Below are positions 1 to 33,119 of a stretch of 64,000 nt of DNA, one piece after another. The notes under the pieces were generated by a model. The model was not told the DNA's origin, did no database searches, and saw only the letters and a list, made by a program, of their open reading frames with translations. Position 1 is the stretch's first letter, and every line of letters starts with the position of its first letter. The position numbers were made by a program, and so were the translations under genes. The stretch lies in assembly GCF_009914755.1 (NCBI RefSeq), contig NC_060933.1. The stretch is one strand, 5' to 3'. The DNA is from the human T2T-CHM13v2.0 reference genome, Homo sapiens.

Positions 1-375
1 GTGTGTTTAGCTAACCTTTTGTGGATGCTTAACCAGCCAGAGATGCCCCGCATTATTTCCACAGAAGTCTCCATGTGCTTCTTTATCTTCTAATTAATAC
101 TATTTTTAATTATTCCCAAGGCCCAGCACTTAAAGTCAATAATAGCAGAATATTAACTATTAACATTAGCTATATTTTCTTATATAAGCTTTATATACAT
201 GAACATAAATTTACTGAATTTAGATCATAATATGTGTGGATTTAAACATTTTTTTTCTCACTTTGTTTTTGTGAACTTTATTCTGGGTTATTAAATATTT
301 TTGAAAACATGATTTAATGACTTAATAGATTAATATTCTCTTATATAGGTATTTTATAATATTCCTCTTGTTTCT

Positions 376-28359: not shown

Positions 28360-30670
28360 GCAGTACTTCTTTTTTAAAGACAAATTTGAAAGGCCACTTG
28401 CCAGCTGCAGCCCTTGTAAAGCCAGGAACATTGTTCATGGCTAATACCAAGAGCAAATCAGGGATACCCAATCCCTACATGGTTGGGGAGGAAAAAAAAA
28501 AAAAAAAAAAGGAGTATCTTTGGAAATTCAGATTTTGTCCTTGTGGGAAGAGAGAAGGAAGAATTTGGCATCCTCTAGACTTTGGAGCGTGGTCTACCTA
28601 GGCAGCTGGGCACCAAGCCCAAGACCCAGAAATTCTGGTTGTGCAGGTAGTGCATCCTCGCAGGCTAGACTGAGTTGGCCAGATTAGGGGCATGGCTGTT
28701 CCTGGCCCCATGAGACCTTGAGGTGAAGCAGTAATGCCTCACAGGATGGATAGGGTTCTTAGATGAAGAATTCCTCAATGAATTAGAGTTGTTAGATAAG
28801 CTGGAAAGAAAAGGAGAGATGTGAAATGGGAATACATGCAGTTTCTGTCTCTTGGTTCTTGGCCTAGTTATTTCTAGTAAAAAGAATCAGCTTCATCTTT
28901 ATCCCAAGTCCTCTGACTCGTCCTTCTGGTTCCTCCTAGTCTGGGGAAGCACAATGCTTTTAAATTCCAGGCCCACAGACTAGATGTAGGTGGTGGCCTT
29001 TCCTGAAAATGGGTTGCCATGAGAGCAGTCTGCCTGTGTTCTTTAAGGCATTTTCCCACTTTTAGGATTAACTTGAGTACTGGGAAAATAAAAGGAGGCA
29101 GAGTTTAGAAGATTTAGAAATCTCCATCAAATCTAGAAAATGGGGAAAGCATCCCTGGTCAAAGAACATGAAGAGTAGCATGTCTCCCACCAATCCATCT
29201 TACCCCTCCCAGGAGACCTAGCAGGACTGGAATATTAGTTGTCCCATGTGCCTCCTAGATCTCTGCTTTCCTCCTTGTACTTTCCACTCTACTGCTTCCG
29301 TACACTCTCCACATTCTCAGTAAAAAGGGAATGTATTCTCACTCCACATGAGGTAATCATCGTCTCTGCCTCTGTAATGCAGTCACCAATAGCTTAGGGT
29401 GTAGGGACTAGACTGGTGGCAAGTCTGTCTTTACCTTATTGGAGAAGAGTAAAGCACCCTGGAGCCCTCTGTGAGGTAACCCTCCCCCACATGTCCCATG
29501 TGATATTCTCTCTGGGCCAGGCAGAGGATTAGAGCAACCCTTTGTTATTAATACTTGAGCAGTGGACAGTGTGCTGGACAATCACTTATTGTGGTGCTCT
29601 GAAAGATCCTCTGTGGGCCAGGAAAGCCAAACCCAGATATTGACTAGCTGCAGCAAGCCCTTAGAGAGTATTAAGTGGAGCTCAGGAGCACCAAGCTAAG
29701 CCTAAACCTCCTTCATCCCCAGTTGTGAGTTCATGATACCTGTCTCTTTGGCTACCTGCCTCTCTACCTGCCTCTCTCATGCTAAATGCCACCTACGTCT
29801 GGACAGTGTGTGCGTACTGTGCCACTTTATTCTAGAATTAGGTAAAGAAATATTTTTCCTGCTAAGTTTAAAATACGTAAACCATTGTCCTTTCTCCAAG
29901 TGAACGGTTGCCATCACTCAACAAAGGGAAAATACTTTGTGCTATAAGCACAGGCAGGGGTAAACTTTTGAGTAAGTGGAGTCTTCACCAGAACAACAAA
30001 CTGGAAAAGAAAGAAAGAAAGAAACATTCCATGTCTTGTCTTTCACTGTGTATGTGATTTGAGCCTTGGTGGTTAAGCATTTGTTTGTTTATTTCTGAGC
30101 CAGACTCCTAGTACTGAATTTTGTGAAAGTTCAAATAAGGACTTACTCATTGACCTTACTTCATCTACCTCCCAGCAGCTTGTCTCAATATCGTTGACTT
30201 TGGGTACTTGCCCAGAACACAAGGACTTTATTTTAATTTTACATTGATACTCTAAGGGGAAGCTAATGAGAAACAACTGACTGCCCATAGCCTTTAAGAC
30301 TGGGGTTGGGAGGCAGGTCAGGGTTGATTCCTATAATCTTAGGAGATAATGTTTTTATTCCTGCTTGACAACTTGATTCAAACTAAAATCATCCTGCTAC
30401 TTTCTGACCTGAGTGCACTATTTTCCTTTTTCACTAGCTACAGGATAAATCAAGCCAGGATCCAGGGGCATGTGCGAGGTTTGGAGGCCACACATGGGGC
30501 CATTCCAGGCAGCACTGTGGGCTAAGCCCAAAGCATCAGCCAGCAATAATTGCTAGAAACAAACTGAAAAGAGCAGGACAGGCTGTTGCCTTCCAAGGTA
30601 ATCTCTATTAAGCATCCTGACCAGAAATAAGAGGAAGAAGCAGAGAACCCCTCAAACCCTGAGGGAGAAA

Positions 30671-32954
30671 ATGAAGCGATTGTTGCAAGAGTCAGAGGAA
30701 GAAATCATGGTTACCTTGGGACCCTCCTCCAGGCTTTCCCCAGATAAGGCTAAGGCAGAGACCATGTGTGGCACCAAGAGCAAATCCTCTGGCCCTGCTG
30801 GATCCTTACCAGAGGACAACTCCCTGCCCCCTTGCTGTGGGTCAGCAGCCTTAGCCATTGGTGGAGATAGAGATGGGGACCTGGCCCAGCTTTGCAGCTT
30901 TGGGCAGCAGAACAACAGCCAGCTTCCTCTGGGCTCCACTGCCTATGTTTCAGGGTCTGGTTCTCAGGATCCCTCATCTGTCAGCATTACCACAAGCTGT
31001 CAGGAGCCCTCAGAGAGGAACCAAACCAAGACCCTTTTGTCCAGAGGCCATGGCCAAGGCTGTAGCCGTGAACAGCGGGAACCTTTGGGGGATGTAGTAG
31101 AATACATCATCAGAGAGCTGCAAGGCATCAGCCGTCTTCAGACTGAGATTGCTGAGCTGCAGCAGCACTTGAGCCAAGTCCAGGGTTCCGTGGATGAAGT
31201 CTCTAGCTGTGTAGACTCAGTACTGAGTGAAATAGAAGGCTTACAGGTGAGCACCTGTTCCCTGGCCAAGGTGTGTGAGGGTGAAAAGGCCCAGGAACCC
31301 CACGTGGACAGACCCAGTGAGGAAGCCATTCTGTATTTGTACGGACTTCCTGAACAAGATGGAGAAAATACTATGGAACTGGTGGAAAGCTTTCTAGCCA
31401 AGCACCTTTGTGTTAATGGCATGCAGTGCAACAGGTACATTAAAAAGGCTTACAGGGCAGGCACATCCCCTTCCCCTAGGCCCACTGTTGTGAAGCTTGC
31501 CCATCTAGAGCATAGAGACTTCATCTTGCAGAAATCCATCCTCTTGCAGAATGTGGGAGTCCGAATTGCCACCAGAGAAGAACCAAGCTGCCCACAGGGT
31601 AATAAGAATCCCCAGAAGGAGTCTATATCATTTTTTCAACAACAACATCAGGATTATAGTCAGACTTCTTTAAACCAGGATGAACCAGTTCTTCAGATGG
31701 AAACAGGGGACAGGGGACCCATAACAGGAACATATCAGATGAAGGCTCAGGATCAACAGAGAGAGCACCAGGCCCCTGAGCAGCAAGGCCCTTGCTTTCT
31801 ACTCAAGAACAATTTATCAAAGGAAAGTGATGTGCCCAAGCTAGGGGATGAAATAAAAGGAGCATCAAGAACATCTCAAGTTATCAGTGGCAGCTGTGAT
31901 GAACTGTCAGAGAAAAAGGCTTCTCTGTCTACCCCCCATCAGTTTGAGGAACCTGCCCTAGTATTAATCTCAAAAGAGGAGGCTTCTGGGAAGTCCCAGT
32001 TTTTCAAACAGTACAGCCAAAAACATGAAGCATGTAAAGTAGGAAAACCAGAAAATGACTGCCACGATAAAAGTGAGGCCAGCAGCTGCCTGTCATTGTC
32101 TGGGTTACTGAAGACAGAGAGAATAAACGCAGAGGACAAGCTCCTGGGCTGCGAAGCTGGGCTCGATATTCTGAGCTCAAAGGAACTAGAGGACCTTTTG
32201 GCAGACAAGTCCAGAAGGCTTGCAGCTCTGAGCTGTGACAGCATGATGGAGGAAATTATCATAGGGCCTGAGACTTTCAGTGACATGGTTCATATTGACC
32301 TGAATGAAGAGGAGGAATGTGCTGCTCACGTCCTCAAGGATGTCTTTGACAAGTCCTCTTGTGTTCTGGGTGGCTCTCAGGAGGATGAGGATGTGGAAAT
32401 CAAGTTTTATACAAGTAAACTGGGCCGAGCAATTCACCACTTTCGTTCTGCTCTGCAGGGTGTGTTTCAGAAGCTGGAGAACAGTGGGTCCATCAGTCCT
32501 GAGGACCTGGAAAGCAATGAGAGTGGTTCCCAGTCAGAGAACAGTGATCGACTTCTTGGGACAGTGAGTTCAGGGGGTGCCCAGGATTGCTCACTGGAGA
32601 GCCCTGGGAGTCAGGGGAGTGAAAGCTTGCTCAGTGTGGTCTCTGGTGGAGTTGGCGTCTCCACACAGGGAGAGCAAACCCCTCAGGATCCAAGCACCTT
32701 CTCTCTTGCTTCTAATAACTCCTTGCCAAGTGTTGCTCTGGCTCCATGTCTGGGAAGTGAGACTTGTTCCAGGCCTGGATCTCCCAAGCAGGGCAGACTG
32801 AGCCTAGAGCAAGTGTGTACAGAGACCGTTTACCTCAACAAGTGCATCAACAATTTTAAGAATGTTCTAAGAGAGAAAAGACTAAGGCAGAAAAAACTTC
32901 TGCATGAGCTAGTACAGAAGGCAAACCGTCTCTCAGTAGAAGACATACACTCAG
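30671..32954 (+). CDS. UNC13B: UNC13B brain-type (bMunc13-2) N-terminal coding exon: 761 codons + 1 nt; coiled coil, ORF1p-like domain, calmodulin-binding helices
   Basis: 776-aa ORF MKRLLQESEEEIM...LSVEDIHS matches the recalled bMunc13-2 N-terminus. Donor TCAG|GTATTC (phase 1) joins in frame through the 23-nt exon to the shared exons. Candidate acceptor AGs end at 30437 and 30443. Confidence 0.9.
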
Positions 32955-33119
32955 GTATTCTGAGTCACTATTTAACAGGGTCCCAGCTGGCTAAAGTATG
33001 ACCTCCATCTGGCCAGCATGAGACCTGGTGTGGTGGCCAGTTTAATAAGGTGTTGGTTGACGTCCATAGCTTGAATCAGGCTAAATTACTCAAGTAGAGA
33101 GCTTAAGCTAATCCTGTGG

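What the first reader, a model, noticed from the sequence alone, without database searches (positions are those of the whole stretch)
31091..31582. Brain-type Munc13-2 exon appears to contain a domesticated LINE ORF1p module (coiled coil + RRM)
Seen: aa 141-191 of the ORF form a heptad coiled coil (DVVEYIIRELQGISRLQTEIAELQQHLSQVQGSVDEVSSCVDSVLSEIEGL). It is followed at aa ~219-304 by ILYLYGLPEQDGENTMELVESFLAKHL...IKKAYRAG...PRPTVVKLAHLEHRDFILQKSILLQNVGVRIA. Established (from memory): non-LTR retrotransposon ORF1p of the L1/Transposase_22 type has a coiled coil then an RRM with the motif order NLRLIGVPE.D.EN ... I..(AH)R ... PR(P/H)IIV(K/R)F ... K..IL ... I.(L/I)..D. All these motifs recur here in order and at similar spacing, within a single intronless exon. 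As I recall, UNC13C has a related segment (..KELQGISQIETEL..PRPILVYF..LKGTGIGIS..). Inference: an ancient LINE ORF1 was exonised into a vertebrate Munc13 ancestor, and its trimer-forming coiled coil may now oligomerise or anchor Munc13 at active zones (bMunc13-2 is recalled to bind ELKS through its N-terminal coiled coil). The basic residues before the first RRM strand are replaced by EEA and the ORF1 CTD looks truncated, so RNA binding may be lost.
Basis: partly seen in the sequence, partly recalled or inferred. Interest (0 to 1): 0.88.

Follow-up and report, generated by a model that had tools for sequence, protein, structure and literature searches.

The report
LINE ORF1p remnant inside brain Munc13-2
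The brain-specific first coding exon of human UNC13B carries a conserved coiled coil plus RNA-recognition-motif fold that descends from the ORF1 protein of a LINE-1-type retrotransposon, and its coiled coil is the piece already known to anchor this synaptic priming protein to ELKS1 at active zones.

Summary
Window 31091-31582 (+) encodes aa 141-304 of the bMunc13-2 N-terminal exon: a ~50-residue heptad helix, a 27-residue linker and a ~85-residue domain.

The ORF1p reading holds for the domain. A profile of that domain alone, from 9 Munc13-2/-3 sequences, hits only LINE-1 ORF1p in the PDB (4 of 4 hits at E<=10; 2.3e-5 to 1.1e-4). hhalign to a 7-member ORF1-like family gives 98.4 %. The AlphaFold2 model is beta-alpha-beta-beta-alpha-beta. 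Its best structural matches are all L1 ORF1p (Foldseek ranks 1-10; the only three Z>=8 of 48,161 chains).

The coiled coil cannot be shown homologous on its own; it is inferred from collinearity. The ORF1p C-terminal domain is absent and the basic charge is largely gone.

The module is a conservation island and occurs in a shark. It groups with the Munc13-3 copy.

An ORF1-like UNC13C exon was noted in passing by Kitao et al. 2025. My searches found nothing in print on UNC13B, or on a link to the ELKS1-binding coiled coil (Kawabe et al. 2017).

The parts
30586..32954 (+). Brain-type (bMunc13-2) alternative N-terminal exon of UNC13B. A variant starts at 30438. The coding frame is open from 30602, with an ATG at 30671.
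   Evidence: Hub annotation lists exons of other transcripts at 30438-32954 and 30586-32954. ORF. ATG. GT donor directly after 32954.
31091..31243 (+). Coiled coil, aa 141-191. It corresponds to the ELKS1-binding motif of rodent bMunc13-2 (residues 145-187 in Kawabe 2017). Inferred to be the remnant of the ORF1p coiled coil.
   Evidence: Single-sequence AF2 gives a helix over residues 3-55 of P0002 with pLDDT 75-92 over residues 1-50. The three-copy model shows parallel in-register heptad contacts over residues 4-67. 12 invariant columns across 12 Munc13-2/-3 rows. Paper passages. Homology of this part alone is not demonstrable.
31244..31324 (+). Linker, aa 192-218, low confidence and poorly conserved. 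It aligns to the C-terminal end of the coiled coil of ORF1-like proteins, so it is probably decayed coiled coil.
   Evidence: pLDDT <50 for P0002 residues 56-81. BLASTP and hhalign run through it with 0-3 gap positions. Lower conservation in window 201-225.
31325..31582 (+). ORF1p-type RRM, aa 219-304. Strand 1 at 31325-31342, helix 1 at 31370-31408, strand 2 at 31439-31456, strand 3 at 31484-31498, helix 2 at 31505-31552, strand 4 at 31562-31570.
   Evidence: AF2 on a 19-row alignment: pLDDT 78.4, pTM 0.68, elements E9-14 H24-36 E47-52 E62-66 H69-77 H79-84 E88-90. Profile against PDB. hhalign. Foldseek. VIA-align.
31583..32398 (+). Poorly conserved stretch where an ORF1p C-terminal domain would follow. 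No CTD was detected.
   Evidence: hhalign of the whole 775-aa exon product against the ORF1-like profile stops at P0001 residue 300, leaving the family's CTD columns unaligned. Identity to human falls to 0.50-0.63 in mammals and 0.10-0.20 in non-mammals.

Best explanation
Window 31091-31582 encodes a domesticated fragment of a LINE-1-type (coiled coil + RRM + CTD) ORF1 protein. It is now a fixed part of the brain-specific N-terminal exon of UNC13B. The RRM is retained complete. The CTD has been lost, and so has the basic patch before strand 1. The coiled coil that precedes the RRM, at the spacing seen in ORF1-like proteins, is the experimentally mapped ELKS1-binding site that anchors bMunc13-2 at a subset of active zones. 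The same module sits in Munc13-3 (UNC13C) and in a cartilaginous fish. The capture therefore most likely happened once, in an early vertebrate unc-13 gene, before the UNC13B/UNC13C split. Proposed mechanism: the ORF1p self-associating coiled coil was re-used as a protein-protein docking and clustering element (shown for ELKS1 by others; self-association only modelled here). The RRM persists as a folded, constrained partner or structural domain rather than as an ORF1p-style RNA packager (inferred).
For: Sequence, domain only, no coiled coil: the profile of 9 Munc13-2/-3 rows hits 4 distinct PDB sequences at E<=10, and all 4 are LINE-1 ORF1p. They are 2w7a at 2.3e-5, 2ykp at 4.3e-5, 2yko at 4.4e-5 and 2ldy at 1.1e-4.

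Bridge family: the human 175-aa stretch finds P0166, P0168 and P0170 (300-323 aa) at E 2e-5, 3e-4 and 4.9e-4 in 1.84 billion proteins. P0168 alone hits L1 ORF1p 2yko at 5.4e-5. The 7-row profile of that family hits 2ykp at 2.6e-12. One member is named 'L1 transposable element RRM domain-containing protein' by its source. hhalign of the Munc13 domain profile against that family gives Prob 98.4 %, E 7e-15, over 97 columns. The whole 775-aa exon product against that family gives one hit, residues 152-300, Prob 96.1 %, running collinearly through coiled coil and RRM.

The Munc13-3-like module alone has L1 ORF1p as its top PDB hit (1.3e-3). That alignment covers the end of the coiled coil plus the RRM.

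Structure: the AF2 model (pLDDT 78.4) has RRM topology. Foldseek ranks 1-10 are all human L1 ORF1p (E 2.1e-4 to 1.3e-2, TM 0.52-0.61), and canonical RRMs begin at rank 11. VIA-align over 48,161 chains gives only 3 with Z>=8, all L1 ORF1p (9.6, 8.6, 8.3); the next is a canonical RRM at 7.8.

Constraint: identity to human in aa 151-300 is 0.77-0.92 (14 mammals) and 0.55-0.71 (7 non-mammals). In the following 175 residues it is 0.50-0.63 and 0.10-0.20.

Age: P0127, with a full module, is from Cetorhinus maximus. Munc13-2 and Munc13-3 modules lie on one side of a branch against 6 ORF1-like rows, support 90/93.

Function of the coiled coil: Kawabe et al. 2017 (passages) mapped ELKS1 binding to residues 145-187. 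Deleting them impaired active-zone anchoring.

Self-association model, three copies: score 0.67, best of 3 controls 0.01. The runs agree in at least 79 % of contacts and partner pLDDT is at least 70. The mark was reached by 21 of 30 proteins solved as pairs of one chain and by 0 of 23 solved as single chains. On eukaryotes it was reached by 17 of 29, but by only 1 of 7 with no older solved relative. The job differs from the calibration in having three copies, and the L1 ORF1p trimer is solved, so the pass may be from memory.
Against: Pfam's Transposase_22 model does not recognise the region. There is no hit at E<=10 for the human exon product or the 175-aa stretch, and only 1 of 9 domain sequences hits, at E 0.065. 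The three bridge proteins are not recognised by Pfam either. The human stretch alone finds no ORF1p in the PDB at E<=10. Identity to ORF1p is only about 17-23 %.

The coiled coil alone scores no better against the ORF1-like profile (Prob 16.4) than against the reversed profile (18.1). Its ORF1p descent therefore rests on position and spacing only.

The ORF1-like comparators are few (7; 6 in the tree), mostly unnamed metagenome-derived records. The branch joining Munc13-2 and Munc13-3 is not starred. The margin of ORF1p over ordinary RRMs in the fold searches is modest: Z 9.6 against 7.8, and Foldseek E 2e-4 against 1e-2. No codon-level selection test and no LINE-library (Dfam/Repbase) search could be run.
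Confidence: 0.85

Rival explanations
1. Only the RRM comes from ORF1p. The coiled coil is a host (or independently evolved) coiled coil that happens to lie upstream in the same exon.
For: The coiled-coil part alone matches the ORF1-like profile no better than the reversed profile (Prob 16.4 against 18.1). In the Munc13 family the coiled coil persists without the RRM in 35 of the 50 representative hits, so the two parts can separate.
Against: Alignments to ORF1-like proteins run collinearly through coiled coil, linker and RRM with at most 3 gap positions. The Munc13-3-like module aligns to the solved L1 ORF1p trimer from the coiled-coil end into the RRM. A coiled coil directly before the RRM in one intronless exon is the ORF1p architecture.
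Confidence: 0.12
2. UNC13B and UNC13C acquired ORF1 exons independently, through two separate LINE insertions at similar positions.
For: The two RRMs are only 22-25 % identical. The joining branch has 90/93 support, not the starred level. Recurrent ORF1 exonisation in other genes is documented (Kitao 2025, section 11 read).
Against: The human module finds the Munc13-3-like proteins at E 3.3e-11 and 4.9e-11, against 2e-5 or worse for ORF1-like proteins. The coiled coils share 12 invariant columns and are reported 52 % identical (Kawabe 2017). Both copies lack the CTD and the basic motif before strand 1. The best tree joins them.
Confidence: 0.06
3. The domain is an ordinary host RRM, or a chance RRM-like fold, whose likeness to ORF1p is convergent.
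For: Pfam Transposase_22 is not reached. Identity is low. Canonical RRMs follow closely in the fold searches.
Against: No canonical RRM appears at E<=10 in the profile search, while all four hits are ORF1p. hhalign gives 98.4 % to an ORF1-like family that itself hits L1 ORF1p at 2.6e-12. ORF1p chains take all top ranks in two independent structure searches. An independent published screen picked up the UNC13C copy against Dfam ORF1ps at E<1e-10.
Confidence: 0.03

Closest known systems
Human LINE-1 ORF1p (solved: 2w7a RRM, 2ykp/2yko/2ykq trimer, 2ldy RRM-CTD)
   Same: Coiled coil followed by an RRM of the same topology. Shared motifs in the same order, as printed in the alignments: hydrophobic strand 1 ending in G/N-(V/L/I)-P-E, acidic E-N turn, R after strand 2, P-R-(P/H) before strand 3. 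Best sequence and structure match.
   Different: No CTD. The basic R..N motif before strand 1, invariant in the ORF1-like family, is replaced by SEEA, KEEP or SKAT. Net charge of the domain is 0 in human (range -9 to +5 in 19 Munc13 rows), against +1 to +11 in 7 ORF1-like rows. It is a spliced exon of a host gene, not part of a LINE. It is below Pfam's threshold.
ORF1p-like canonical exon of UNC13C (Kitao, Ichiyanagi and Nakagawa, Genome Res 2025, PMC12129022)
   Same: The paralogous copy of the same module. The authors' screen against 147 Dfam ORF1ps picked UNC13C. [quoted passage not shown] Best Dfam hits listed in their table: L1-11_DR_gag and HAL1ME_gag.
   Different: They did no further analysis. 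[quoted passage not shown] S8 could not be seen. The UNC13B copy is more diverged (stem length 1.22). It is an alternative, brain-type exon, and its coiled coil has a mapped partner (ELKS1), whereas Munc13-3 did not bind ELKS1.
Lyosin (L1 ORF1p-MYL4), L1-RFX5, NUP42-L1, USP4-L1 and L1TD1
   Same: Host proteins or isoforms built from L1 ORF1. Lyosin likewise keeps the coiled coil and RRM, lacks the CTD, and shows selective conservation of the RRM (sections 11 and 13 read).
   Different: Those are lineage-restricted (sauropsids, catfish, Afrotheria, Carnivora, eutherians), and the oldest is put at more than 280 million years. The Munc13 module is shared by shark and human and sits in a core synaptic gene.
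ELKS1-binding coiled-coil motif of bMunc13-2 (Kawabe et al., J Cell Biol 2017, PMC5379939)
   Same: It is the same stretch. Residues 145-187 of rodent bMunc13-2 correspond to aa 141-191 here. They are needed for ELKS1 binding and active-zone dwell time.
   Different: [quoted passage not shown] It mentions neither the folded domain behind the coiled coil nor a transposon origin (passages seen).

Membership tests
L1-type ORF1p (coiled coil + RRM + CTD; Pfam Transposase_22 and partners) | RRM with beta-alpha-beta-beta-alpha-beta topology, structurally closest to the ORF1p RRM | tested here: met
   Topology. Foldseek ranks 1-10 are all L1 ORF1p. The only three chains with Z>=8 among 48,161 are L1 ORF1p.
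L1-type ORF1p (coiled coil + RRM + CTD; Pfam Transposase_22 and partners) | Significant sequence similarity of the RRM to ORF1p | tested here: met
   Domain-only profile: 4 of 4 PDB hits at E<=10 are L1 ORF1p, 2.3e-5 to 1.1e-4. hhalign gives 98.4 % to the ORF1-like family.
L1-type ORF1p (coiled coil + RRM + CTD; Pfam Transposase_22 and partners) | Reaches Pfam PF02994 (Transposase_22) gathering score | tested here: not met
   No hit at E<=10 for P0001 or P0002. 1 of 9 domain sequences hits at E 0.065.
L1-type ORF1p (coiled coil + RRM + CTD; Pfam Transposase_22 and partners) | Coiled coil directly N-terminal to the RRM | tested here: met
   Helix over residues 3-55 of P0002, then the RRM from residue 84. 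Collinear alignment to ORF1-like proteins. Sequence homology of the coiled coil alone is not demonstrable.
L1-type ORF1p (coiled coil + RRM + CTD; Pfam Transposase_22 and partners) | C-terminal domain (CTD) following the RRM | tested here: not met
   hhalign stops at the RRM end and the family's CTD columns stay unaligned. Conservation collapses after aa 300.
L1-type ORF1p (coiled coil + RRM + CTD; Pfam Transposase_22 and partners) | Homotrimer through the coiled coil | tested here: inconclusive
   Three-copy model scores 0.67 against a best control of 0.01, with parallel in-register contacts. The model cannot fix the oligomer number and may recall the solved ORF1p trimer.
L1-type ORF1p (coiled coil + RRM + CTD; Pfam Transposase_22 and partners) | Basic RNA-binding surface and RNA binding | tested here: inconclusive
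   Net charge is 0 (Munc13 range -9 to +5) against +1 to +11 in ORF1-like rows, and the basic motif before strand 1 is lost. RNA binding itself is not testable here.
L1-type ORF1p (coiled coil + RRM + CTD; Pfam Transposase_22 and partners) | Encoded by a LINE, upstream of an ORF2 with endonuclease and reverse transcriptase | tested here: not met
   It is an internal part of a spliced UNC13B exon (hub annotation). Pfam finds nothing else in the 775-aa exon product. It is a derivative, not a transposon copy.
Domesticated L1 ORF1p exons of host genes (Kitao et al. 2025 sense) | ORF1p-like coding exon spliced to host exons and conserved across genera | tested here: met
   Full-length 'unc-13 homolog B' proteins with MUN, C1 and C2 domains carry the module in many mammalian orders. 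It is also present in birds, a marsupial and a shark. Conservation island.
Canonical RRM (Pfam RRM_1) | Sequence match to canonical RRM models or chains | tested here: inconclusive
   No RRM_1 hit in Pfam and no canonical RRM chain at E<=10. Canonical RRMs appear only as lower-ranked fold matches.

The most novel reading that the evidence does not exclude
The Munc13-2/Munc13-3 N-terminal module is the oldest known domestication of a LINE-1 ORF1 protein. It would predate the shark-human split, and probably the UNC13B/UNC13C duplication. It would still use ORF1p's native biophysics: coiled-coil-driven trimerisation or higher-order assembly, with the retained RRM acting as a ligand-binding or condensate-promoting domain, to cluster priming factors at ELKS-defined active zones. 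Isoform-specific synaptic release properties would then rest on retrotransposon-derived self-assembly machinery.
Probability: 0.25. Interest if true: 0.85.

Novelty: new member of a known kind. Interest (0 to 1): 0.62.

Why it matters
bMunc13-2 and Munc13-3 give synapses distinct short-term plasticity, and their N-termini have been treated as novel sequence with only a short shared coiled coil (Kawabe 2017). This analysis shows that the shared part is larger: a coiled coil plus a folded RRM of about 85 residues. That gives the N-terminus a domain map and points to a concrete, untested domain for mutagenesis. It also suggests testable properties taken from ORF1p, namely trimerisation, nucleic-acid binding and condensation.

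For transposon biology it adds a deeply conserved case, shared by shark and human, to a very short list of LINE ORF1 co-options. It also links one of them to a mapped molecular function, ELKS1 docking.

Tried and rejected
**Single-sequence searches that found nothing.** Pfam on the human exon product and on the 175-aa stretch gave only weak coiled-coil noise. Single-sequence PDB search gave no ORF1p.

**Pfam on the bridge proteins.** No Transposase_22 hit even at E<=10. Their ORF1p nature had to be shown through the PDB and through one named relative.

**Coiled coil alone against the ORF1-like profile.** No better than a reversed-profile control. I therefore make no claim of sequence homology for the coiled coil.

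**Single-sequence AF2 of the 175-aa stretch.** Low confidence (pLDDT 57.9). I used it only for secondary structure.

**dN/dS.** No vertebrate orthologue DNA is reachable with these tools, so I used protein conservation instead.

**Taxon of the coiled-coil-only proteins.** 35 of the 50 representatives carry the coiled coil without an RRM.

**Search for a CTD remnant after the RRM.** None found.

**Literature.** Munc13+ORF1p gave 0 papers. ORF1+LINE+Munc13-3 gave 0. Munc13+retrotransposon+ORF1 gave 1, judged irrelevant from its title and abstract. UNC13B+ORF1 gave 3, judged irrelevant from their titles and abstracts. Transposase_22+domesticated gave 2, judged irrelevant from their titles and abstracts.
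Full report
**1. The observation**

The window holds a single open frame, 30602..33001 (+), 799 aa stop to stop. It spans the alternative UNC13B exon that the hub annotation places at 30438/30586-32954. The exon ends at 32954, followed by a GT donor.

Both quoted strings are present in the translation. The heptad stretch DVVEYII...SEIEGL is at aa 141-191 (nt 31091-31243). ILYLYGLPEQDGEN...VGVRIA is at aa 219-304 (nt 31325-31582).

**2. Direct searches with the human sequence**

The human sequence alone is not recognised by curated models. Pfam gives only weak coiled-coil noise and no Transposase_22 hit at E<=10. A PDB sequence search gives no ORF1p.

A full HMMER pass of the 175-aa stretch (P0002) over 1.84 billion representatives gave 50 hits at E<=1e-3. 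Most are Munc13-2- or Munc13-3-like proteins. Three are proteins of 300-323 aa that match across both the helix and the domain: P0166 (2e-5), P0168 (3e-4) and P0170 (4.9e-4). Their own sequences show a coiled coil, then a hydrophobic strand ending in G-I-P-E, an E-R-x-H-R motif, R-P-I before the next strand, and a further C-terminal domain.

Pfam does not name these three proteins. However, P0168 alone hits human LINE-1 ORF1p (2yko 5.4e-5, 2ykp 1.2e-4, 2ldy 3.4e-3) over RRM and CTD. A 7-row profile of the family (A2) hits 2ykp at 2.6e-12 and 2yko at 4.4e-12. One relative is named 'L1 transposable element RRM domain-containing protein' by its source. These proteins are therefore ORF1p-type proteins.

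**3. The domain without the coiled coil**

Coiled coils inflate scores, so I aligned the domain alone from 9 Munc13-2/-3 sequences (A1). Twelve columns are invariant, including the P-E after strand 1, A..R after strand 2 and P-R-P before strand 3.

Its profile hits exactly four distinct PDB sequences at E<=10, and all four are LINE-1 ORF1p: 2w7a 2.3e-5, 2ykp 4.3e-5, 2yko 4.4e-5, 2ldy 1.1e-4. hhalign of A1 against the ORF1-like family gives Prob 98.4 %, E 7e-15, over 97 columns, on that family's RRM.

Scanning each of the 9 rows in Pfam gives Transposase_22 for only 1 of 9, at E 0.065. Pfam's own threshold is therefore not met.

The Munc13-3-like module is the less diverged copy. On its own it has L1 ORF1p as its top PDB hit (1.3e-3), aligned from the end of the coiled coil into the RRM.

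**4. Structure**

AlphaFold2 on a 19-row Munc13-only alignment (A3) gives pLDDT 78.4 and pTM 0.68. The elements are E9-14, H24-36, E47-52, E62-66, H69-84 (kinked) and E88-90, which is the RRM order.

Foldseek against the PDB puts human L1 ORF1p chains at ranks 1-10 (E 2.1e-4 to 1.3e-2, TM 0.52-0.61). Canonical RRMs begin at rank 11. VIA-align, which does not depend on Foldseek, aligned 48,161 representatives. Only three reach Z>=8 and all are L1 ORF1p: 2w7a_B Z 9.6 (rmsd 2.5 over 84), 2yko_A 8.6 and 2ldy 8.3. The next is a canonical RRM at 7.8. The margin is modest but consistent across methods.

The single-sequence model of the 175-aa stretch is poor (pLDDT 57.9). It shows one long helix (residues 3-55), a disordered linker, and the same strand/helix order.

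**5. What is kept and what is lost**

hhalign of the whole 775-aa exon product against the ORF1-like profile gives one hit: residues 152-300, Prob 96.1 %, E 3.4e-9. It is collinear through coiled coil, linker and RRM with a 3-residue gap, and it stops at the end of the RRM. No CTD is present.

The R..N motif before strand 1, invariant in the ORF1-like family, reads SEEA, KEEP or SKAT in the Munc13 rows. The net charge of the domain is 0 in human and ranges from -9 to +5 in 19 Munc13 rows. It is +1 to +11 in 7 ORF1-like rows.

[quoted passage not shown] Loss of ORF1p-style RNA binding is therefore a reasonable inference. It is not a result.

The coiled coil on its own matches the ORF1-like profile no better than a reversed control (Prob 16.4 against 18.1). 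Its descent from ORF1p rests on position, spacing and the single-exon arrangement.

**6. Constraint and age**

I measured identity to human along the exon product in 25-residue windows. In aa 151-300 it is 0.77-0.92 for 14 mammals and 0.55-0.71 for 7 non-mammals. In aa 301-475 it is 0.50-0.63 and 0.10-0.20. In aa 26-125 it is 0.64-0.69 and 0.11-0.26. Some non-mammal rows are partial proteins of about 500 aa, which lowers the later windows.

P0127, which carries a complete module and is 39 % identical to human, is an 'uncharacterized protein' of the basking shark Cetorhinus maximus.

In a maximum-likelihood tree of 16 domain sequences (105 columns), 8 Munc13-2 rows form a clade (99/98). Together with 2 Munc13-3 rows they lie on one side of a branch against 6 ORF1-like rows (90/93, below the starred level). 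One identical ORF1-like row (P0172) was left out. The tree is consistent with one capture before the UNC13B/UNC13C split.

That UNC13A, B and C are vertebrate paralogues, and that sharks and humans diverged well over 400 million years ago, is general knowledge and was not tested here.

Of the 50 representative hits, 13 carry an RRM-like part: 10 Munc13-like and 3 ORF1-like. Another 35 carry the coiled coil only, one of them a truncated fragment. The remaining 2 look like coiled-coil noise. The RRM has therefore been lost in some unnamed lineage while the coiled coil was kept.

**7. Function**

Kawabe et al. 2017 (PMC5379939; passages read) mapped ELKS1 binding to residues 145-187 of bMunc13-2, which is this coiled coil. 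They showed that deleting it impairs rescue and shortens active-zone dwell time. [quoted passage not shown] Munc13-3 did not bind ELKS1.

A three-copy model of the 175-aa stretch gave a score of 0.67, with the best of 3 controls at 0.01. The runs agree in at least 79 % of contacts and partner pLDDT is at least 70. Contacts are parallel, in register and heptad-spaced over residues 4-67.

The tool's calibration reads as follows. The mark was reached by 21 of 30 proteins solved as pairs of one chain and by 0 of 23 solved as single chains. On eukaryotes it was reached by 17 of 29, but by only 1 of 7 with no older solved relative. The job differs from the calibration in having three copies, and my alignment was not used. 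A like complex, the L1 ORF1p trimer, is solved, so the pass may be from memory. The model also cannot fix the oligomer number. It supports self-association of the coiled coil and no more.

**8. Prior knowledge**

Kitao, Ichiyanagi and Nakagawa (Genome Res 2025, PMC12129022) screened vertebrate RefSeq proteins against 147 Dfam ORF1ps. [quoted passage not shown] Their table lists bird and Xenopus UNC13C with best hits L1-11_DR_gag and HAL1ME_gag.

[quoted passage not shown] Their Supplemental Fig. S8 could not be seen. The oldest fusion they discuss is put at more than 280 million years.

Searches for Munc13+ORF1p, ORF1+LINE+Munc13-3, Munc13+retrotransposon+ORF1 and UNC13B+ORF1 found nothing relevant. 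Subscription-only papers and database annotations (InterPro, UniProt) were not searchable.

**9. Verdict**

It is probable for the coiled coil (about 0.7 to 0.8). The finding is a new member of a known kind, a domesticated L1 ORF1p exon, and its paralogue has already been flagged in print.

Three points appear to be new. The first is the UNC13B copy itself. The second is its depth, shared by shark and human. The third is the identification of the mapped ELKS1-docking motif as the ORF1p coiled coil, with a conserved, uncharacterised RRM behind it.

Noticed in passing
window 32399-32473 (+), aa 577-601 of the exon product: A basic amphipathic stretch (IKFYTSKLGRAIHHFRSALQGVFQK) is the most conserved window of the exon outside the ORF1p module: 0.93 identity in 14 mammals and 0.35 in 7 non-mammals. 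From memory, this is about where the calmodulin-binding site of bMunc13-2 was mapped. I did not check this in a paper.
   Followed up: no
window 32849-32923 (+), aa 727-751: A second conserved basic helix-like stretch at the end of the exon (NNFKNVLREKRLRQKKLLHELVQKA), with 0.82 identity in mammals. Function not examined.
   Followed up: no
P0129-P0165 (representative hits): 35 of 50 representative hits keep the coiled coil but give no match to the RRM-only profile. One of them, P0163, is a truncated fragment. P0129 retains a short helix-1-like remnant after the coiled coil. The records are unnamed. A lineage-specific loss of the RRM with retention of the coiled coil is likely.
   Followed up: partly
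P0128 (80 aa): A short public protein that copies the RRM part but differs from mammalian sequences almost only by A-to-V, P-to-L/F, H-to-Y, T-to-I and S-to-F changes. All of these are C-to-T at the DNA level. It looks like an assembly of bisulfite-converted or deaminated reads rather than a real variant.
   Followed up: no
PDB hit 8i3e_A: The Munc13-3-like module gave a non-significant coiled-coil match (E 0.22) to a solved fragment of ELKS1, the known partner of the bMunc13-2 coiled coil. This is probably compositional.
   Followed up: no
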